This document shows, piece after piece, positions 9,364 to 49,752 of a stretch of DNA of 64,000 nt. The notes under the pieces were generated by a model. The model was not told where the DNA came from, searched no databases, and worked only from the letters and a program-made list of their open reading frames with translations. Location: NCBI GenBank assembly GCA_943371375.1, contig CALRUM020000008.1:9164-73163 (forward strand), given 5' to 3'. The first letter of the stretch is position 1. Each line of letters starts with the position of its first letter. This DNA comes from Asaia bogorensis (GTDB lineage: Bacteria; Pseudomonadota; Gammaproteobacteria; Burkholderiales; Burkholderiaceae_C). A program made the position numbers and the translations under genes.

Positions 9364-9386
9364 CCGCCCGGCCGCGTGAGGCATCA

Positions 9387-9445
9387 AGTAAAATTGGATC
9401 GCAGCCCTTATCTAACGGGCGCCAGTAGCTATCAATAACATAGCA
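9387..9445 (-). repeat. REP-like repeat family A, intergenic copy (17-nt palindromic head + ~40-nt body)
   Basis: Head GCTATCAATAACATAGC at 9429-9445; body aligns with the copies at 14511, 21745, 37659, 44469 and 49681. Confidence 0.8.
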
Positions 9446-9468
9446 AGCGGTGGCCCGGTGGGCCAGCA

Positions 9469-14418: not shown

Positions 14419-14510
14419 CGGCGCGCTGGCGTGGGCGCCGATTACATGGCGTAACCATTTGGTGGCGCTGCCCCCGCGCCATGCAGGGGCCGGGGCTGCA
14501 GCCTGGATAA

Positions 14511-14568
14511 GCTATCGATACGATAGCTGCTGACGCCCGCCCAGCAAGGGCTAGAGCCCGATTTTGAT
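14511..14568 (+). repeat. REP-like repeat family A, copy overlapping the 3' end of the metallophosphoesterase gene
   Basis: Head GCTATCGATACGATAGC at 14511-14527, body TGCTGACGCCCGCCCAGCAAGGGCTAGAGCCCGATTTTGAT. Confidence 0.8.
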
Positions 14569-15405
14569 CAGCAAATCGGGCTGAAAGCCGTCCTGCTCGC
14601 CCTTGCGCGCGTAGCCCAGGGGGTTGGCCACCACCCGGCAGCCGTTTTGCACATAGTCGCTGGGGCAATGCAGATGGCCATGCAGCCACAGCTGCGCCTG
14701 GGCCAGCAGCTCATCGAGGGCATTGCAAAAACCCGCTGTGCCCGGTGCCCGGCCGTAACGCGGGTCGGCACTCAGCAGGCTGGGCGCAAAGTGCGTCACC
14801 ACCACGGTCGGGCCGGCAAAAGGCCGGGCCAGCGCCTGGCGCAGCCAGGCCTGGCTTTGCACACCCTGGGCGCGCACCGCGTCGGCCAGCATGGGCTCGC
14901 CGTTCTGCAATGCATGGTGTTTGCGCAGGTAAAAGTTGGCGGCGCGAAAGGCCTTTTCCCTGGCCTTCAGCTGCCCGGCCAGCGTCTGGGCGGGGTCCGT
15001 GACCGGGTCGGGTGCCAGCGCATCAAAGTCGGTCCACAGCGTGCTGCCGACAAAACGCACACCAGCGATTTCCAGCACCTCGCGCTCCAGCCAGATCAGC
15101 CCCAGGCGCTGGCAGACCTCGCGCAGGCGCGCGCCTGCGGCGGCAAAATCCAGGCCGTCGTATTCATGGTTGCCGGGCAAAAAAAGCACGGGAGTCGGCC
15201 AGCCAGCCCCACCTTGCGCCACCGGCAAGGGTGAAAAACGGGCCAGCCCGAAGTCGCTGTCGTGCAGCAGGTCGGCCAGCAGGGAGCCGGGCTGGTAAGA
15301 GCCGATGTCGCCGGCCAGCACCAGCAGGTCAGCGCCGGGGACCGGGCGGGCGACAAAATGCGGGTTTGATTCAAGGTGCAGATCGGACAGGAGCTGGATG
15401 TTCAC
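14551..15405 (-). CDS. Calcineurin-like metallophosphoesterase
   Basis: SDLHLE, LAGDIG, PGNHEY, VVTHFAP, WLHGHLH motifs; GTG start at 15405. Confidence 0.9.
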   Translation of the reverse strand: MNIQLLSDLHLESNPHFVARPVPGADLLVLAGDIGSYQPGSLLADLLHDSDFGLARFSPLPVAQGGAGWPTPVLFLPGNHEYDGLDFAAAGARLREVCQRLGLIWLEREVLEIAGVRFVGSTLWTDFDALAPDPVTDPAQTLAGQLKAREKAFRAANFYLRKHHALQNGEPMLADAVRAQGVQSQAWLRQALARPFAGPTVVVTHFAPSLLSADPRYGRAPGTAGFCNALDELLAQAQLWLHGHLHCPSDYVQNGCRVVANPLGYARKGEQDGFQPDLLIKIGL

Positions 15406-21744: not shown

Positions 21745-21803
21745 GCTCCTGAAATAATAGCTGCTGGTGCCTGCTGTGTCTGGGCTGATGGCCGATTTGG
21801 CTT
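21745..21803 (+). repeat. REP-like repeat family A, copy between modA and modB
   Basis: Head GCTCCTGAAATAATAGC at 21745-21761, body TGCTGGTGCCTGCTGTGTCTGGGCTGATGGCCGATTTGGCTT. Confidence 0.75.
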
Positions 21804-22007
21804 TACAGCAAGGATTTCCGCAGCCAGGTACGGGGCTGCGCGGTACAGTCGGAGCCGTCACCTGCTTTTGCCGCCCGGTCTCCGTGCGGAAGAAAACCCC
21901 ATGAACCTGACCGCCCCATGTCCGCCCGCCGCACCGACCAAGGTGTACATCGCCGCCTGCTTGCGCGGTCGGCGTGTGCGGCCTGCTGCCTGGTGGCCAG
22001 GCTGAGC

Positions 22008-22680: not shown

Positions 22681-23835
22681 ATGCTGCAGGTGTCCCTCCA
22701 GAGTGCTGGCCCGATCCGGCTGAACGCCAGCTTTGATTGCCAGCCCGGCGAGTTGCTGTGCCTGGTGGGTCCGTCGGGCAGTGGCAAGACCAGTGTGCTG
22801 CGGGCGCTGGCCGGGTTGCTCAAAAGTCCGGGTCTGCGCGGCCGGGTCAGCATCAGCGGCGCGGGCGGCGATGCGCTCTGGTTTGACAGCGACCAGGGCC
22901 ACTGGCTGCCACCGCAGCGCCGCCGTGTGGGCCTGGTGTTCCAGAACTACGCCTTGTTTCCGCACCTGACTGCTATCGAAAACGTAGCTATTGCCGCAGA
23001 CCCCGAAAGGGCTGAAGGCGCACTGGATGCCTTGTTTGAACGCATGGGGCTGACCGGCCTGCAACAGCGCCGGCCGGCGCAGCTCTCGGGCGGCCAGCAG
23101 CAACGAGTGGCCCTGGCCCGCGCGCTGGCCCGCGAGCCGCAGGTGCTGCTGCTGGACGAGCCGTTTTCCGCGGTGGATGCGCCCACGCGCCAGACCCTGT
23201 ACCACGAGCTGGCGGCGCTGCGCCAGCGGGTCGCCATCCCGATGGTGCTGGTGACACATGACCTGAACGAGGCACGGCGGCTGGCGGATCGTGTCGTGAT
23301 CCTGGACGCCGGCGAGTCGCTGCAGGTGGGCACGCCGGCGCGTGTATTTGCCAGCCCGCGCAATGCGCGTGTGGCCGAGCTGGTGGGTATCCAGAACCAT
23401 TTCAGCGGCCAGTTTTTCAAAAATCAGCCACAGGACCCGGCCGGTTACGGTCGGCTGGCCTGGCACGATGTGGCGGCTGCGCAGCAGGCTGGTGCAGGCG
23501 CGCCCGTTTGGCTGCAGGTGCCCGACAAAGGGCGCCTGGACGATGGCGTCGCCGTCTCCTGGGTACTGAGCGGTGAGCTGGTGGACGTCGCCGTGGCTGC
23601 GGGCGCGGGCGCGGCGGGCAACAGCCTGCGCTGCACCCTCTCGGAGGTGCTGCCGCTGGGCGAAATCAGTCTGTGCACGCTGGTACCGCTGGCCTTGCCC
23701 GGTCAGCGCCTGACGCTGAACCTGTCCACCGCTGCGCTGCGCCAGCTGGGTGCGGTGGCCGGTGCGGCGCTGGATCTGCAGATACCGCCGCAGGCGGTGC
23801 ATGTCATGCCGGTGCGGCAAAACCAGGCCGGCTAG
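22681..23835 (+). CDS. modC: Molybdate ABC transporter ATP-binding protein
   Basis: GPSGSGKT Walker A, LSGGQQQR signature, LLLDEPF Walker B, VTHD; follows modAB. Confidence 0.9.
   Translation: MLQVSLQSAGPIRLNASFDCQPGELLCLVGPSGSGKTSVLRALAGLLKSPGLRGRVSISGAGGDALWFDSDQGHWLPPQRRRVGLVFQNYALFPHLTAIENVAIAADPERAEGALDALFERMGLTGLQQRRPAQLSGGQQQRVALARALAREPQVLLLDEPFSAVDAPTRQTLYHELAALRQRVAIPMVLVTHDLNEARRLADRVVILDAGESLQVGTPARVFASPRNARVAELVGIQNHFSGQFFKNQPQDPAGYGRLAWHDVAAAQQAGAGAPVWLQVPDKGRLDDGVAVSWVLSGELVDVAVAAGAGAAGNSLRCTLSEVLPLGEISLCTLVPLALPGQRLTLNLSTAALRQLGAVAGAALDLQIPPQAVHVMPVRQNQAG
22972..23020 (+). repeat. Family A repeat-derived segment embedded in frame in modC
   Basis: Head GCTATCGAAAACGTAGC; 20 of the next 31 nt match the 14528 body without gaps; atypical A/T-ending codons. 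Confidence 0.6.
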
Positions 23836-37643: not shown

Positions 37644-37658
37644 GATGGCGGGGACAAT

Positions 37659-37714
37659 GCTATGAAATAGTGAGCTGACTACGCAGATGAGACAAGGGTT
37701 GCAAGCGATATTTG
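37659..37714 (+). repeat. REP-like repeat family A, copy upstream of recQ
   Basis: Head GCTATGAAATAGTGAGC, body TGACTACGCAGATGAGACAAGGGTTGCAAGCGATATTTG. Confidence 0.65.
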
Positions 37715-37729
37715 CCAGAAAGAAAACGG

Positions 37730-39261: not shown

Positions 39262-39319
39262 ATAGCTGACGGGTCTCAGCAGAGCCAGTTTGATTCAACC
39301 GGCAGTGGGTTGCCAGCTG

Positions 39320-39749
39320 GCCGGGTCTCGCCCCGGCGGGCGACTCACTTTCTCTTGCGTCGCCAAGAGAAAGTAAGCAAAGAGAAGGCGACCCGATGGT
39401 CAGGGTCCTTCCGCTTTGCTCCAGGCAACCTGCGGTGCTCGCCGTTAACGGGGGCTAGCTCGAACTCGCCTTCGGCTCAGACAATCGCTCGCCCTGATCC
39501 GTTTTCGGCTGCGCTCCTCGGCCCAGCCCGACGGGTGGGGGAAACAAATGCGGGTTCGGATGCGGGGAGACGATGACGCGGAGAGCGCGTCATCGTCGGA
39601 CTACGCGGCGGTCATGTTTGCACGCGGGGGCAGCACACGCGGCCAAATGAGGTCCCCCTCCATCGCCCAGCGGGGCGAGGGAGGGGTTAGGGGTGGGAGT
39701 GGGGAGTTAGTCCTACTGTCTAACGCAAGCCCGAGACGCAGCGTGATGC
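39320..39749. mobile_element. Composite non-coding repeat family B, copy 2
   Basis: Same orientation and module order as 33524-33944; also lies between convergent genes. Confidence 0.75.
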
Positions 39750-39759
39750 CGGCAACACC

Positions 39760-40659
39760 TCAGCTCAGCACCACACTGCTCAAGCGCCGCCGGTAAGTCG
39801 CCACCACCGGATCATCCGGCGGAATCTGGCCGTCGGCGACCTTGACCCGGGGCGGCTCGATGATTTCCAGGATGGACACAAAGGTCTTGCGTGCCAGTTC
39901 CCCGTTCCAGGATTTGTCGCGCATCAGGATTTCCAGCAACTCGTCCATCGCCGCCACCCACTGCTGCTGGCTCATGTGCAGTTGTGCCAGCGCGTAACGT
40001 GTGTCGAAGTCCCGCTTGTTGCCTGCAAGTTTTGCATCGAATCCGGCTTTGGCCAGCGCCGCATCTGCGTGAGCAGCTCCTGATTCAATAGCGTTGAGCC
40101 AGTGTTGCAGGGCCTCCAGCTTGCGCACCACCGGCGCTTTGCTGGCTACGGGCGCAAAAGCGGTTTTGGCGTGTTCGACCTGGCCGTGCTGCAGCAGCAG
40201 GCGGATGTAATCGAAGCGTGCGTTGTCGTTGGCCGGGTCGGTGGCAACGGCTGCCTGCAGTTTTTCCAGCACCGCTGCCGGGCTGCTGTCTTCCGGCTCC
40301 GCCATTTCTTCTTCGGCCGGTGGCAACTCTTCGGCCGGCGGCAGGTGTTTGTCGAGAAACTCCTTGACCTTGCCTTCGGGCAGCGCGCCCTGAAAACCGT
40401 CCACCGGCTGGCCGTTGACCATCAGTATGCAGGTCGGAATGCTGCGAATGCCAAAGGCGGCGCCCAGTTGCTGCTCCTGGTCGGAGTCGATCTTGACCAG
40501 CTTGAAGCGTCCGCCGTAGGCGATTTCCACTTTCTCCAGGATGGGCCCCAGAGATTTGCAGGGTCCGCACCAGGGCGCCCAGAAATCAATCAGCACGGGG
40601 GTGGTCATGGAAGCCGCAATGACTTCCTCCTCAAAATTGGCAATGGTGGCGTCGATCAT
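39760..40659 (-). CDS. ybbN: Thioredoxin/TPR co-chaperone YbbN (CnoX)
   Basis: DFWAPWCGPCK, FGIRSIP, C-terminal TPR ELLEILMRDKSWN...YRRRLSS. Confidence 0.9.
   Translation of the reverse strand: MIDATIANFEEEVIAASMTTPVLIDFWAPWCGPCKSLGPILEKVEIAYGGRFKLVKIDSDQEQQLGAAFGIRSIPTCILMVNGQPVDGFQGALPEGKVKEFLDKHLPPAEELPPAEEEMAEPEDSSPAAVLEKLQAAVATDPANDNARFDYIRLLLQHGQVEHAKTAFAPVASKAPVVRKLEALQHWLNAIESGAAHADAALAKAGFDAKLAGNKRDFDTRYALAQLHMSQQQWVAAMDELLEILMRDKSWNGELARKTFVSILEIIEPPRVKVADGQIPPDDPVVATYRRRLSSVVLS
40036..40092 (-). repeat. Family A repeat-derived segment embedded in frame in ybbN
   Basis: Minus strand reads GCTATTGAATCAGGAGC-TGCTCACGCAGATGCGGCGCTGGCCAAAGCCGGATTCGAT, encoding AIESGAAHADAALAKAGFD. Confidence 0.65.
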
Positions 40660-40772: not shown

Positions 40773-41279
40773 ATGACAACGCAAGATCAAAATGCGCCCC
40801 TCATCGGCGTGGTGATGGGCTCCAGCAGCGACTGGAGCACCATGCAGCATGCGGTGCAGATCCTCCAGCAGTTCGGCGTGGCGCATGAGGCGCGCGTGGT
40901 TTCGGCGCACCGCATGCCGGACGAGCTGTTTGCCTATGCCGAGCAGGCCGCCGGGCGCGGTCTCCAGGCCATCATTGCCGGCGCTGGCGGCGCCGCCCAT
41001 CTGCCGGGCATGCTGGCGGCCAAAACCGCCGTGCCGATACTCGGCGTTCCGGTGGCCAGCAACCATTTGCAGGGTGTCGATTCGCTGCACAGTATTGTGC
41101 AGATGCCCAAGGGTGTGCCGGTCGCGACTTTTGCCATTGGCAACGCCGGCGCTGCCAATGCCGCCCTGTTTGCTGTGGCCATGCTGGCCACCCACGACAA
41201 AACGCTGGCCGACAAGCTGCAGGCCTTCCGCGCCGAACAGACCGCCGCTGCGCGCGCCATGACACTTCCTCCCGCATGA
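40773..41279 (+). CDS. purE: N5-CAIR mutase
   Basis: [37 protein letters not shown]. Confidence 0.97.
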
Positions 41280-42496
41280 GCCTTCCGATCTTTCCGGGCG
41301 CTTTGGATGCCTTGGGCCAGCCAGCCACCCTGGGTGTGATGGGCGGCGGGCAGCTGGGCCGCATGTTTGTGCATGCTGCGCAGCGCCTCGGTTATTTCAC
41401 GGCGGTGCTCGACCCCGATGCAGACAGCCCGGCGGGCCGCGTCAGCCATCACCACATCCAGGCCGGTTACAGCGATGCGGCTGGCCTGGCGCAACTGGCA
41501 TCGCTGTGCGCCGCCATCACCACCGAATTTGAAAACGTGCCGGCTGAGGCCCTGCAGGCGCTGGCCGCCAGCCGGCCGGTGGCGCCTGGCGCAGCGGCGG
41601 TGGCGATTGCGCAGGATCGCATCGAGGAAAAAGCCCACTTCAGCGCCAGCGCCGGTGTCGCAGGTGTCAGCTGCGCGCCTTATGCGGTCATCAGGACTGC
41701 GCAACAGCTGCGCGCCGTGCCGGCCGATCTGCTGCCCGGCATCCTGAAAACCGCACGTTTGGGTTACGACGGCAAGGGCCAGCTGCGTGTGGGCAACATG
41801 GCCGAACTGGCGGTGGCCTGGGCGGATTTGAAGGGTGTGCCCTGCGTGCTGGAAAAGCGGCTGCCGCTGAAGGCCGAGTGTTCGGTCATTGTGGCGCGCG
41901 GCTGGGACGGTGCGGTGGTGGGTTTTGCGCCGCAGTACAACCTGCATGTGGACGGCATTCTGGCCGTCACTGCCGCCCACGAAGGAAATATACCGCCAGC
42001 CCTTGCACAGCGGGCGCGAGCAGCTACTGAATCCATAGCAAGCCACATCGGCTATGTCGGTGTGTTGTGTGTCGAGTTTTTTGTCATCGACGACGGCAGT
42101 GCCGATGGCGCGCTGGTGGTCAACGAAATGGCGCCACGCCCCCACAACAGCGGCCACTACACGCTGGACGCCTGCGATGTCTCGCAGTTTGACCTGCAGG
42201 TGCACGCCATGGCGGGCTTGCCGCTGCCGCTGCCGCGCCAGCATTCACCGGCCATCATGCTCAATCTGCTGGGCGATGTGTGGCTCGATGCCGCAGGCCA
42301 GGCGCGCACGCCCGACTGGCAAGCCGTGCTGGCCCTGCCCGGCACACACCTGCATCTGTACGGCAAGCTCGAAGCCCGCCCCGGCCGCAAAATGGGCCAC
42401 CTGACCATCACCGGCGCCGATGTGGCGTCGGTGCAGGCGGTGGCGCGCCAGGCCGCTCGGGTTCTGCGGCTGCCGGGGCTGGACGCGCTGGGATGA
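41276..42496 (+). CDS. purK: N5-CAIR synthetase
   Basis: [46 protein letters not shown]. Confidence 0.96.
41986..42039 (-). repeat. Family A repeat-derived segment embedded in frame in purK (body first, head last on the coding strand)
   Basis: AAATATACCGCCAGCCCTTGCACAGCGGGCGCGAGCA-GCTACTGAATCCATAGC closely parallels the 9390-9445 copy. Confidence 0.7.
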
Positions 42497-44448: not shown

Positions 44449-44468
44449 GCACCAGGCCAAGGCAATTA

Positions 44469-44521
44469 GCTATTGTTTTGATAGCTGTTGATGCGGGTCC
44501 GGCAAGGGCAAGGTGATTTTT
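44469..44521 (+). repeat. REP-like repeat family A, copy between convergent genes
   Basis: Head GCTATTGTTTTGATAGC is the exact reverse complement of the head at 49721-49737. Confidence 0.8.
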
Positions 44522-44540
44522 GCTTCAGGCCGGCGACAAC

Positions 44541-45332
44541 TCAGGCGGTTAGCCGCCTTTTGGCGGCAGCCACCGCCGACAGAAAATCTTCGAGCACCGC
44601 CGCGTCGTCAATCGTGTCCGAGCCCGGTTGGTGAAACTCGGGGTGCCATTGCAGCGCCGCGATATAGGTTTTGGCCGGGTCTTTGCGGCGTATCGCTTCC
44701 ACAATGCCGTCGGGCACACTGAAGGCTTCGGCCTCGAACTCGGGCGCCAGGTCCTTGATGCCCTGGTGGTGAATGCTGTTGACCCGGACCCGCTCCACCC
44801 CGGGGTACAGGCGTGAGAGTTGCGAGCCTTGCACGATCTCCACACTGTGGAAGTTCTGGTCGTAACTCACCGCGTCGCGGTGCACATGCGATTCGGGCAC
44901 CTGGGTTTCAATGTCCTGGTACAGCGTGCCGCCGTAGGCCACGTTGAGCAGTTGCAGGCCACGGCAGATGCCAAACACCGGTTTGCCGGCTTTTTCAAAC
45001 GACGCCACCAGCGCCTTGTCGTAGTCGTCGCGCACCCGGTCGCCGGACCAGCGTTCCTCCAGCGGGTCTTCGCCATAACTGCCAGGCCAGACATCGGCGC
45101 CGCCGTGTAGCACCAGCCCGTCCAGCCACTGGGCGTAGTCGTCAAAACCCACATCGCCGCGCTGGGTGGCGCCGGTTGGGCAAGGCACCATGACCACCAT
45201 GGCGCCGGAAGACATGATCCAGTGCGCGACGGTCTGCTCCACATACTGCAGGGTTTTGCCGGTGAACAGCGAACGTGCCGGGTCGGCATGGGAAAAGCAG
45301 GCCGACAGGCCAATTTTCAGGCGGGTGCGCAT
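44541..45332 (-). CDS. Gamma-glutamyl-gamma-aminobutyrate hydrolase-like glutamine amidotransferase (peptidase C26)
   Basis: LVLHGGADV, FGICRGLQ (nucleophile Cys), VNSIHHQG, LQWHPE. Confidence 0.9.
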   Translation of the reverse strand: MRTRLKIGLSACFSHADPARSLFTGKTLQYVEQTVAHWIMSSGAMVVMVPCPTGATQRGDVGFDDYAQWLDGLVLHGGADVWPGSYGEDPLEERWSGDRVRDDYDKALVASFEKAGKPVFGICRGLQLLNVAYGGTLYQDIETQVPESHVHRDAVSYDQNFHSVEIVQGSQLSRLYPGVERVRVNSIHHQGIKDLAPEFEAEAFSVPDGIVEAIRRKDPAKTYIAALQWHPEFHQPGSDTIDDAAVLEDFLSAVAAAKRRLTA

Positions 45333-48532: not shown

Positions 48533-49657
48533 ATGGACATGCCGAACAAAAGCAACCCCGCCCTGAACACCGAAAAAGCCAAAGCCCTGCAGGCCGCGCT
48601 GGCCCAGATCGAAAAACAGTTCGGCAAAGGCACCATCATGAAACTGGGTGCGGGCGAAGTGATCGAGGACATCCAGGTGGTCTCCACCGGCTCGCTGGGT
48701 CTGGACATCGCGCTCGGCGTAGGCGGCCTGCCGCGCGGCCGCGTGGTGGAGATCTACGGCCCGGAATCGTCCGGCAAAACCAAGCTGACCCTGCAGGTGA
48801 TTGCCGAAATGCAGAAACTCGGCGGCACCTGCGCGTTTGTCGATGCCGAACACGCGCTGGACATCCAGTACGCGCAAAAACTCGGCGTGAACCTGCAGGA
48901 CCTCTTGATCAGCCAGCCCGACACCGGCGAGCAAGCGCTGGAAATTGTCGATTCGCTGACCCGCTCCGGCGCGGTGGATTTGATCGTGATCGACTCGGTG
49001 GCGGCGCTGACACCCAAGGCCGAGCTTGAAGGCGAAATGGGCGACTCGCTGCCCGGCCTGCAGGCCCGCCTGATGAGCCAGGCCCTGCGCAAGCTGACGG
49101 CCCACATCAAGAAGGCCAACTGCATGGTCATCTTCATCAACCAGATCCGCATGAAGATCGGCGTGATGTTCGGCAGCCCCGAAACCACCACCGGCGGCAA
49201 TGCGCTGAAGTTCTACGCCTCGGTGCGCCTGGACATCCGCCGCATCGGCTCGATCAAGAAGGGTGAAGAGGTGGTCGGCAACGAAACCCGCGTCAAGGTG
49301 GTCAAGAACAAGGTCGCCTCACCGTTCAAGATGGCGGAGTTCGACATCCTCTACGGCGAGGGCATCAGCCGGCTCGGCGAGGTGCTGGACCTCGGTGTGG
49401 CCGGCCACATCGTCGAAAAAGCCGGCGCCTGGTATGCCTTCAACGGCGAAAAAATTGGCCAGGGCCGCGACAACTCGCGCGAATTCCTGAAAGAAAACCC
49501 GGAGCTCGCGATGGAAATTGAAAACAAGGTGCGTGAGTCGCTGGGCATTCCGCTGATCCAGGAGGCTGTGGGCAACAAGCCGGAGAAGGCCGAGAAGGTG
49601 GAGAAGGCCGAAAAAGCCGAAAAAGCCGAAAAAACGCCGAAAGTTCTGGCCGTCTGA
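48533..49657 (+). CDS. recA: Recombinase RecA
   Basis: [59 protein letters not shown]; AAGGAG RBS. Confidence 0.98.
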
Positions 49658-49680
49658 GGCTGCCAGCCCGGGGCGTGTGA

Positions 49681-49737
49681 ATCAAATCGGCCCCCAGACA
49701 ATATCCAGCAAGCATGAGCAGCTATCAAAACAATAGC
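49681..49737 (-). repeat. REP-like repeat family A, copy between recA and recX
   Basis: Head GCTATCAAAACAATAGC at 49721-49737 with body ATCAAATCGGCCCCCAGACAATATCCAGCAAGCATGAGCA. Confidence 0.8.
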
Positions 49738-49752
49738 GACCGGGGGCCGGGC

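What the first reader, a model, noticed from the sequence alone, without database searches (positions are those of the whole stretch)
40036..40092. Repeat family A in frame inside ybbN/cnoX
The coding strand reads GCTATTGAATCAGGAGC then TGCTCACGCAGATGCGGCGCTGGCCAAAGCCGGATTCGAT. It shares TGCT.ACGC and GGC.A.AGCC.GATT with the 14511 copy and ACGCAGATG with the 37659 copy. The head starts exactly at codon 190 and gives AIESGA, in the linker between TPR helices.
Basis: partly seen in the sequence, partly recalled or inferred. Interest (0 to 1): 0.65.

Follow-up and report, generated by a model that had tools for sequence, protein, structure and literature searches.

The report
Dispersed repeat written over cnoX helices
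Twenty-four codons of the chaperone-thioredoxin gene ybbN/cnoX in this Polaromonas-like genome are a true copy of a 60-base repeat present about 480 times in the genome, yet the copy adds no residues: it lies codon for codon over an existing helix-turn-helix and its DNA is kept at the same site across related species.

Summary
Window 40020-40093 (minus strand) matches, without gaps, a profile of the genome's ~60-nt GCTAT-N7-ATAGC repeat family that was built without this copy: 33.8 bits, E 4e-8, against 12 bits for the best hit in a reversed-genome decoy. The head starts at codon 190 (AIESGA).

The implied insertion is refuted. All Comamonadaceae sensu stricto orthologues have this segment, and those with ungapped alignment, including ones whose DNA does not resemble the repeat, have it at the same length. 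More distant outgroups are only 4 residues shorter. On an AlphaFold model (pLDDT 93.6) the copy covers the end of helix 179-195, a 4-residue turn and all of helix 200-213.

The match is at DNA level. Codon choice sits 5-8 SD above synonymous resampling in 18 Polaromonas orthologues, although synonymous sites elsewhere are as diverged as against another genus. The signal is gone in three lineages that keep the peptide.

Genome-wide, about 130 copies lie deep inside genes, 75% in one reading frame. purK and modC are also overlays; moeA carries a true 60-nt insertion.

Best reading: the motif was written onto a pre-adapted site and is held by a nucleotide-level force, such as uptake-signal-like drive, biased conversion or binding-site selection.

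The parts
39760..40659 (-). ybbN/cnoX-type gene (299 aa): thioredoxin domain with an intact WCGPC motif, followed by a TPR-like helical domain
   Evidence: ORF and translation. Pfam Thioredoxin 5-103, TPR_19 127-177, TPR_20 206-296. PDB YbbN/chaperedoxin 3qou and 9wcw at E about 7e-29.
40020..40093 (-). Intragenic copy of the dispersed ~60-nt repeat, sense orientation, Ala-first frame; encodes aa 190-213, AIESGAAHADAALAKAGFDAKLAG
   Evidence: nhmmer 33.8 bits, E 4.2e-8, ungapped over model positions 5-78. Ungapped log-odds 51 bits against -1.6 +/- 7.5 for synonymous resampling, z 7.1.
40076..40092 (-). Head palindrome GCTAT-TGAATCA-GGAGC (codons 190-195, GCT ATT GAA TCA GGA GC), built from rare codons
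   Evidence: Sequence. The codon choice falls in the 0.14% tail of all 7-codon windows in the genome. The GGAGC arm is used by 44 of 305 family copies.
40067..40078 (-). Conserved box AGCTGCT-CA-CGC (family consensus AGCTGCTTGCGC)
   Evidence: Information profile of the family; alignment to the model.
40033..40057 (-). Body and tail. The AAGGGCTG.AGGCC box is degraded in this genome to GCTGGCCAAAGCC. The tail GGATTCGATGCA encodes the conserved G-F-D-A
   Evidence: The sister genomes L003 and L004 keep AAGGGCT/AAGCGCT here and score 44 and 41 bits.
41965..42041 (-). Second intragenic copy, antisense inside purK (CDS 41276-42496, plus strand); also no length change
   Evidence: 41.1 bits. Gap-free alignment of this stretch to PDB PurK 10bm_A and 4izo_A.
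22969..23037 (+). Third intragenic copy, sense inside modC. The head lies on the universal ABC-ATPase motif hLT(a/v)xxNva, here AIENVA
   Evidence: 31.9 bits. PDB alignments show no insertion.
14508..14580 (+). Best-scoring family copy in the window; lies outside the listed ORFs as far as read. Other copies scored in the window: 9374-9446(-), 21751-21816(+), 37658-37720(+), 44465-44546(+), 49653-49740(-)
   Evidence: 51.8 bits and the list of window hits; sequences.

Best explanation
Shown: the ybbN segment is a genuine, vertically inherited intragenic member of a ~60-nt dispersed motif family. The family consists of the head GCTAT-N7-ATAGC, then TGCTTGCGC, about 9 variable bases, AAGGGCTG.AGGCC and ATTT. 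The copy did not add residues. Its fixed positions sit on synonymous or tolerant codon positions of a pre-existing helix-turn-helix (A-[IL]-[DE]-F-V-A ... F-D-A-K-I), which is older than the DNA signal. The DNA-level match is kept at the same codons across deeply diverged Polaromonas lineages and decays to ordinary GC-rich codons in a few of them.

Inferred: the motif was written onto a rare pre-adapted site by substitutions or short conversion patches. It is held there by a force acting on the nucleotide motif itself. Candidates are uptake-signal-like biased recombination, biased gene conversion among copies, or selection for a DNA-binding site. The force does not act through the protein or through any need of ybbN. 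For the protein the copy is close to neutral cargo that fixes rare codons and, in one clade, changed DFV to ESG.
For: 1. Family membership is beyond chance: 33.8 bits, E 4e-8, against 12 bits for the decoy maximum.

2. The same CDS position hits the model in orthologues of 65-93% amino-acid identity, up to 44 bits.

3. There is no indel in the Comamonadaceae s.s. orthologues that align without gaps, and outgroups are only 4 aa shorter.

4. The real sequence scores 20-61 bits against -28 to +2 expected from its own amino acids, z 4.1-8.1, close to the synonymous maximum. Variovorax, the Rhodoferax type, L010, L022 and L024 have z about 0.

5. Four-fold sites outside the segment are 0.49-0.66 identical between the two Polaromonas clades, the same as against Variovorax (0.56). 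A/T at third positions is 0.62 inside the segment against 0.23 outside (p 1e-4). The rare GCT codon (7.5% of Ala codons) is kept in 15 of 16 sequences at codon 190.

6. Pre-adaptation: the Variovorax peptide, which has no DNA signal, could reach 37 bits by synonymous choice alone. Only 12 of 968,123 proteome windows can do that.

7. On the ybbN tree L010 and L022 are nested among carriers, so the missing signal there is a secondary loss.

8. The same overlay pattern holds for purK and modC.

9. The family behaves as a constrained motif. Fixed columns carry up to 2 bits next to fully random columns. Nearest-neighbour identity is only 45 of 60. There is no base-pair covariation and no orientation bias relative to genes.
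Against: The family can also make real insertions. moeA carries +20 aa (60 nt) relative to repeat-free relatives, and geranyl-CoA carboxylase beta carries +7 aa. An insertional mechanism therefore exists and could have acted on ybbN long ago.

A 60-nt motif of roughly 50 bits is far larger than any known uptake signal, and writing it by point substitution needs many steps.

Two repeat-rich genomes (G015, G018) have lost the ybbN signal, so the force is not uniform.

No binding protein, uptake bias or conversion tract was shown. No close donor copy exists in this genome; the best is 43 of 60.
Confidence: 0.6

Rival explanations
1. Ancient insertion. One 60-nt unit inserted into ybbN at or before the base of Comamonadaceae sensu stricto, with a compensating deletion of about 48 nt of the old linker. 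The family-wide peptide A[IL][DE]FV..FDAKI is the translated repeat. Polaromonas kept the DNA and the others ameliorated it.
For: The family does insert into genes (moeA +60 nt). Comamonadaceae s.s. are 4 aa longer here than Methylibium, Burkholderia or Thiobacillus. Peptides of repeat-less orthologues are unusually compatible with the motif, about 1e-5 of proteome windows. Simplicispira and a 'Burkholderiaceae' MAG outside the Polaromonas clades also carry the DNA signal, z 5.2 and 4.6.
Against: The end motifs are alignable with the outgroups (ACEAA.. / ..LNAAIAANKRDF), so they predate any insertion. The net change is 12 nt, not 60. Keeping the DNA near its synonymous maximum since family-level divergence would still need the same nucleotide-level force. 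The modC overlay lies on a universal ABC-ATPase motif that certainly predates the repeat, so overlay without insertion does occur.
Confidence: 0.2
2. A locally functional element. The copy serves ybbN itself, for example as an internal regulatory DNA site, a translational pause made of rare codons between helices, or an mRNA processing site. It is conserved by selection on ybbN expression.
For: Rare codons are conserved at the same positions in many species. The position is at a helix-turn boundary.
Against: The match covers the whole 60-nt family consensus, not only rare codons. Three lineages lost the DNA signal while keeping the peptide. About 130 unrelated genes carry copies in either orientation. 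There is no structure covariation and no Rfam family.
Confidence: 0.1
3. Recent mobile-element insertion, as in Rickettsia palindromic elements or intragenic MITEs.
For: It is an in-frame copy of a dispersed repeat. A third of the copies lie in genes.
Against: There are no added residues in any Polaromonas orthologue or in the other ungapped Comamonadaceae s.s. orthologues. The copy is shared by lineages whose synonymous sites are as diverged as between genera. No near-identical copies exist anywhere in the genome.
Confidence: 0.03
4. Chance or compositional resemblance.
For: Ala-rich helices in a GC-rich genome give repetitive codons.
Against: E 4e-8 genome-wide. The decoy maximum is 12 bits. 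z is 7 against synonymous resampling. Orthologues hit independently.
Confidence: 0.01

Closest known systems
Motif pair ATAGCT(N)22CAAAAG of Polaromonas naphthalenivorans CJ2 (Tong & Mrazek-type unsupervised motif survey, BMC Genomics 2017, PMC5217627)
   Same: Same head, and the same register as this genome's ATAGCT-N22-CTGGAG. The paper reports 125 copies, 18 of them in genes and 34 between convergent genes, with function unknown. Here 117 copies lie between convergent genes and 26 between divergent ones.
   Different: The paper lists the motif only as a 'potential novel motif'. It contains nothing on reading frame, orthologue comparison, overlay versus insertion, or ybbN. I inferred that the two families are the same from the register and did not check it on the CJ2 genome.
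DNA uptake signal sequences in coding regions (USS of Pasteurellaceae, DUS of Neisseria; Findlay & Redfield 2009, PMC2817400)
   Same: An over-represented motif on both strands. Many copies lie inside genes without indels, in preferred reading frames and at tolerant positions. Copies accumulate in situ and are lost with the system (abstract read).
   Different: This motif is about 60 nt and about 50 bits, at 1 per 8 kb, against a 9-12 nt core at about 1 per kb. It uses rare rather than preferred codons. Close pairs are avoided. No uptake bias is known. ComEC is present in repeat-free relatives as well.
Rickettsia palindromic elements and other intragenic MITEs (review PMC10969869)
   Same: A dispersed repeat found in frame in many unrelated housekeeping genes and encoding a recurrent peptide. 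The moeA copy is a true unit-length insertion.
   Different: In ybbN, purK and modC no residues are added. The unit is 60 nt, not 100-150. There are no terminal inverted repeats and no whole-length hairpin.
REP/REPIN elements with RAYT transposases
   Same: A short palindrome-containing repeat with an (A/G)TAGC word. It is frequent at the 3' ends of genes and behaves as a constrained family.
   Different: A third of the copies are intragenic. The single Y1_Tnp gene is present in repeat-free relatives as well and is not flanked by copies. Copies do not form clusters or doublets.
YbbN/CnoX chaperedoxin (E. coli 3QOU; 9WCW)
   Same: A thioredoxin fold followed by TPR-like helices.
   Different: This protein keeps a canonical WCGPC active site. 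From my own knowledge E. coli CnoX lacks it and Caulobacter CnoX has it. The host gene is otherwise ordinary.

Membership tests
Comamonadaceae ~60-nt GCTAT-N7-ATAGC dispersed repeat | Profile score above chance over the whole unit, without gaps | tested here: met
   33.8 bits, E 4.2e-8, model positions 5-78 ungapped. The model was built without this copy. The decoy maximum is 12 bits.
Comamonadaceae ~60-nt GCTAT-N7-ATAGC dispersed repeat | 17-nt head GCTAT-N7-(A/G)(T/G)AGC followed by CTGCT..CGC | tested here: met
   GCTATTGAATCAGGAGCTGCTCACGC. The arm variants are ATAGC 52%, GTAGC 26% and GGAGC 14%.
Comamonadaceae ~60-nt GCTAT-N7-ATAGC dispersed repeat | AAGGGCTG.AGGCC box and ATTT tail in register | tested here: inconclusive
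   The tail is present. The box is degraded in this genome (GCTGGCCAAAGCC) but intact in the orthologues L003 and L004.
RPE-like / intragenic MITE insertion | Adds a peptide segment that orthologues without the element lack | tested here: not met
   Same length in Variovorax, Simplicispira, Rhodoferax-type and Polaromonas orthologues without the DNA signal. Outgroups differ by 4 aa.
RPE-like / intragenic MITE insertion | Terminal inverted repeats or a whole-length hairpin | tested here: not met
   No complementary covariation between any columns; maximum mutual information 0.15 bit. No Rfam family matched.
RPE-like / intragenic MITE insertion | In frame, without stop codons, in many unrelated genes | tested here: met
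   130 copies deep inside genes, 98 of them in the Ala-first frame. These counts rest on my own crude gene caller.
DNA uptake signal sequence | Copies in genes arise without indels, in preferred frames, at tolerant sites | tested here: met
   ybbN, purK and modC show no insertion. Frame bias.
DNA uptake signal sequence | Short core (9-12 nt) at roughly one per kb | tested here: not met
   The unit is about 60 nt. 481 copies in 3.95 Mb give a mean spacing of 7.8 kb.
DNA uptake signal sequence | Preferential uptake of motif-bearing DNA by competent cells | not testable with these tools
   This needs a transformation or uptake assay. ComEC is present but also occurs in repeat-free relatives.
REP/RAYT (REPIN) | A cognate RAYT gene flanked by the repeats and co-occurring with them | tested here: not met
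   Y1_Tnp was found in all 17 genomes searched, including those with zero copies. The nearest copies are 3.8 and 6.7 kb from the gene.
REP/RAYT (REPIN) | Extragenic location | tested here: not met
   About a third of the hits lie inside predicted CDSs.
YbbN/CnoX (host protein) | N-terminal thioredoxin fold plus C-terminal TPR-like helical domain | tested here: met
   Pfam, PDB 3qou and 9wcw, AlphaFold model with pLDDT 93.6.

The most novel reading that the evidence does not exclude
A 60-nt DNA motif is actively written onto and maintained in coding DNA without changing protein length. The cause would be a motif-directed drive: a giant uptake-signal-like sequence, or biased conversion seeded at pre-adapted peptides. 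Such a non-coding repeat family would then dictate codon choice, and sometimes amino acids, in more than 100 housekeeping genes of Polaromonas and its relatives. ybbN, purK and modC would be clear cases.
Probability: 0.4. Interest if true: 0.8.

Novelty: new variant of a known kind. Interest (0 to 1): 0.62.

Why it matters
Two ways are known for a repeat family to sit inside genes. One is insertion of extra peptide, as in Rickettsia RPEs. The other is short uptake signals that accumulate by substitution. Here a unit six times longer than any uptake signal lies codon for codon over folded helices of a conserved chaperone. It is kept at DNA level across lineages whose synonymous sites are otherwise saturated, and it vanishes where the force lapses.

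This gives a clean, testable system for asking what nucleotide-level force can override codon bias and shape protein sequence. Candidates are uptake, conversion or a binding protein.

It also warns annotators that such segments are neither indels nor horizontally acquired DNA.

Tried and rejected
- Rfam on the whole window found no family at gathering threshold.
- Mutual information over 433 anchored copies showed no Watson-Crick covariation, only a period-3 signal, so a structured-RNA reading was dropped.
- REP/RAYT link: the Y1_Tnp gene occurs in repeat-free genomes too and is not flanked by copies.
- Competence link: ComEC is present in nearly all genomes, repeat-rich or repeat-free, so it is uninformative.
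- Chi/KOPS-like strand bias: only 54:46 with GC skew.
- Search for a recent donor copy: the best is 43 of 60, which is ordinary for the family.
- The DFV-to-ESG head change as proof of conversion: both head forms are rare variants of a very diverse loop, so this is weak.
- Rare-codon pausing alone does not explain a match to the entire 60-nt consensus.
- The Polaromonas JS666 genome paper (PMC2570305), cited for a Polaromonas MITE, is not held, so I could not check whether that MITE is this family.
- My first orthologue alignment was wrong for minus-strand loci and was redone.

Full report
**1. Observation**

The gene is the 299-aa ORF 39760-40659 on the minus strand. It has a thioredoxin domain (5-103, WCGPC intact) and TPR_19/TPR_20 helices, and its PDB relatives are YbbN/chaperedoxin 3qou and 9wcw. 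AIESGA starts at residue 190.

**2. Is the repeat family real, and is this a member?**

- GCTAT-N9-AGCT[GA] occurs 297 times in the 3.95-Mb, 63% GC genome.
- A DNA profile built from those copies, leaving out the ybbN one, finds 481 hits at E<1e-3.
- The ybbN site scores 33.8 bits (E 4.2e-8). It aligns without a gap to model positions 5-78 and ranks 300th of 481.
- The reversed genome gives one hit of 12 bits.
- The unit is about 60 nt: TGCTAT.AATTtAATAGCTGCTTGCGCaCGTCc..cAAGGGCTGgAGGCCgATTTgaC. Columns of up to 2 bits sit beside columns of 0 bits.
- Nine copies score in the window.

**3. Is it an indel?**

No. I fetched orthologues from 40 related genomes and from named genomes (the closest named one is a Polaromonas MAG at 86%).

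- All same-genus orthologues with full-length sequence have the segment at the same length.
- So do Variovorax (AIDFAA..AEFDAKI), Simplicispira, and the Rhodoferax, Comamonas and Hylemonella types (ALEFVS..QFDALI).
- A few Ramlibacter-type orthologues have small deletions in the segment, and Aalborgiella has a 9-residue insertion.
- The next outgroups (Methylibium, Rhizobacter, Paraburkholderia, Cupriavidus, Thiobacillus) are only 4 residues shorter. Their ends are still alignable: A-C-E-A.. and ..L-N-A-A-I-A-A-N-K-R-D-F.

On an AlphaFold2 model (50-sequence alignment, mean pLDDT 93.6) the copy covers the last six residues of helix 179-195, the turn 196-199 and the whole helix 200-213, all at pLDDT 96-98. 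It is not a free linker.

**4. The resemblance is nevertheless at DNA level and is conserved**

- The same CDS position (nt ~566-640) hits the repeat profile in orthologues of 65-93% amino-acid identity: 44.1 bits (L003), 41.3 (L004), 37.6 (L013) and 34.7 (L008).
- I scored the 72 nt in the fixed register and compared each sequence with 2000 synonymous resamplings of its own peptide under this genome's codon usage. Polaromonas clades A and B give 20-61 bits against an expected -28 to +2 (z 5.3-8.1 for the same-genus set; the Polaromonas MAG L031 has z 4.1). That is close to the maximum their peptides allow, for example L003 at 61.4 of 64.0.
- Variovorax, the Rhodoferax type, and the Polaromonas lineages L010, L022 and L024 give z about 0.
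- Simplicispira (z 5.2) and one 'Burkholderiaceae' MAG (z 4.6) also carry the signal.
- The head uses rare codons: GCT is 7.5% of Ala codons, GGA 3.9% of Gly, TCA 5.3% of Ser and GTA 3% of Val. Its codon choice lies in the 0.14% tail of all 7-codon windows.
- Among 16 carriers, A/T at third positions is 0.62 in the segment against 0.23 elsewhere (p 1e-4). GCT is kept at codon 190 in 15 of 16.
- Four-fold sites outside the segment are only 0.49-0.66 identical between the two clades. This is the same as against Variovorax (0.56). T and A make up 8% and 7% of those sites.

Neutral retention cannot explain the pattern.

On a ybbN tree built without the segment, L010 and L022 are nested among carriers, so the missing signal there is a secondary loss. 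L007 and L010 encode nearly the same peptide, one with repeat-type codons and the other with GC-type codons.

**5. Was the peptide there first?**

The end motifs A-[IL]-[DE]-F-V-A and F-D-A-K-I are shared by lineages without any DNA signal and are recognisable in the outgroups. The Variovorax peptide could reach 37 bits by synonymous choice alone. Only 12 of 968,123 windows of this proteome outside called copies can do that. The site is therefore one of a handful of pre-adapted places.

An alternative is that its peptide was shaped by a very old copy. This second reading (rival 1) cannot be excluded, but it also needs the same maintaining force.

**6. Family context**

These counts come from my own crude gene caller (84% coding).

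- 155 of 481 hits lie wholly inside predicted CDSs.
- 130 lie at least 30 nt from the gene ends, 59 sense and 71 antisense.
- 98 of the 130 (75%) are in the frame that reads the palindromic head as GCT ATx ... ATA GCx.
- Antisense copies encode ..P-A-L-S-G-R-A-Q-A-A-x-E-S-I-A-N.
- Intergenic copies favour convergent gene pairs over divergent ones (117 against 26). They show no orientation preference relative to transcription and only 54:46 with GC skew.
- Copies are seldom closer together than 500 nt.
- There is no base-pair covariation and no Rfam family.
- Nearest-neighbour identity is 45 of 60, so there are no young copies.

Indel tests on other hosts gave mixed results:

| Host gene | Net length change |
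|---|---|
| purK | 0 |
| modC | 0; the head lies on the universal ABC motif hLTaxxNva |
| geranyl-CoA carboxylase beta | +7 aa |
| moeA | +27 aa against E. coli; exactly +20 aa (60 nt) against repeat-free congeners |

Genome G007 has lost the family (2 strict copies). It keeps 'ghost' peptides of the same length without the DNA signal in both moeA and ybbN.

Strict-pattern counts per genome range from 245 to 0 within the genus. The clade with zero copies also has no ybbN signal. However, two repeat-rich genomes (G015, G018) lack it too.

In Simplicispira the ybbN copy carries that genome's own common head variant, GCTCT.

**7. Mechanism**

Shown:
- The segment is a true family member.
- No residues were added.
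- The DNA is conserved beyond what the protein requires.
- The signal has been lost secondarily in some lineages.

Inferred: the motif was written onto a pre-adapted helix-turn-helix and is held by a force acting on the nucleotide motif. I cannot separate three candidate forces:
- uptake-signal-like biased recombination;
- biased conversion among copies;
- selection for a protein-binding site.

The palindromic head and the GGGC-N5-GCC box would suit a DNA-binding protein. Orientation independence argues against an RNA role. The existence of a real unit-length insertion in moeA shows that a second route, insertion, also exists.

**8. Comparison with what is known**

- The family appears in the literature only as a 'potential novel motif' of P. 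naphthalenivorans: ATAGCT(N)22CAAAAG, 125 copies, 18 in genes, function unknown (PMC5217627). The register agrees with this genome's ATAGCT-N22-CTGGAG.
- The behaviour in genes resembles uptake signal sequences (PMC2817400), but the unit is about six times longer, eight times sparser, and uses rare codons.
- It resembles Rickettsia palindromic elements (PMC10969869) in moeA only.
- A REP/RAYT membership fails.

An earlier follow-up in this scan reached the same overlay reading for purK. I had obtained the purK result independently before reading that note.

**9. Verdict**

The insertion reading is refuted. The segment is an actively maintained overlay copy of a dispersed motif.

- Novelty: a new variant of a known kind.
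- Interest: 0.62.

Noticed in passing
window 39300-39750: The long non-coding stretch downstream of ybbN has an unusual modular sequence, for example ctttctcttgcgtcgccaagagaaagtaagcaaagagaaggcgacc and a G-rich block near 39660-39700. Another reader has flagged it as one of two ~420-bp modular elements.
   Followed up: no
genome contig C22:41525-44161 (outside the window): The ComEC/Rec2 competence gene of this genome itself carries an intragenic sense copy of the repeat (45.8 bits, C22:42753-42836).
   Followed up: no
genome contig C1:133511-137560 (outside the window): The purL-like gene (1350 aa) carries two antisense copies (41.8 and 51.5 bits). The second is the nearest neighbour of the ybbN copy in the genome (43 of 60).
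   Followed up: partly
window 40044-40057 against L003/L004: In this genome the AAGGGCT box of the ybbN copy differs from its 91-93%-identical sister genomes by a cluster of changes at most of 8 adjacent bases (GCA AGG GCT to GCG CTG GCC, Arg/Ser/Gly to Leu). This could be a multi-base event or a small conversion patch.
   Followed up: no
L065 (Ca. Aalborgiella) ybbN, same loop: This orthologue has a 9-residue insertion exactly in the turn. It also has a head-like palindrome GCTACATACTTAATAGC a few bases out of register.
   Followed up: no
genomes G007, G015, G018 (relatives): G007 has almost no copies genome-wide but keeps same-length 'ghost' peptides in moeA and ybbN. G015 and G018 are repeat-rich yet lack both the moeA insertion and the ybbN DNA signal; their moeA is the short 29-aa-loop form at 67% identity, possibly a different allele or xenologue.
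   Followed up: partly
same-genus genomes G001, G002, G010, G020 (L018-L021): These four genomes of the same GTDB genus carry a 318-aa ybbN of the Rhodoferax/Hylemonella type, with an extra C-terminal insertion, rather than the 296-309-aa Polaromonas type. They have no copies of the repeat family (one strict-pattern hit in G020).
   Followed up: no
genome contig C5:104281-104976: There is a single ~230-aa Y1_Tnp (IS200/RAYT-like) gene, conserved in single copy in almost every relative searched and not associated with the repeat.
   Followed up: partly
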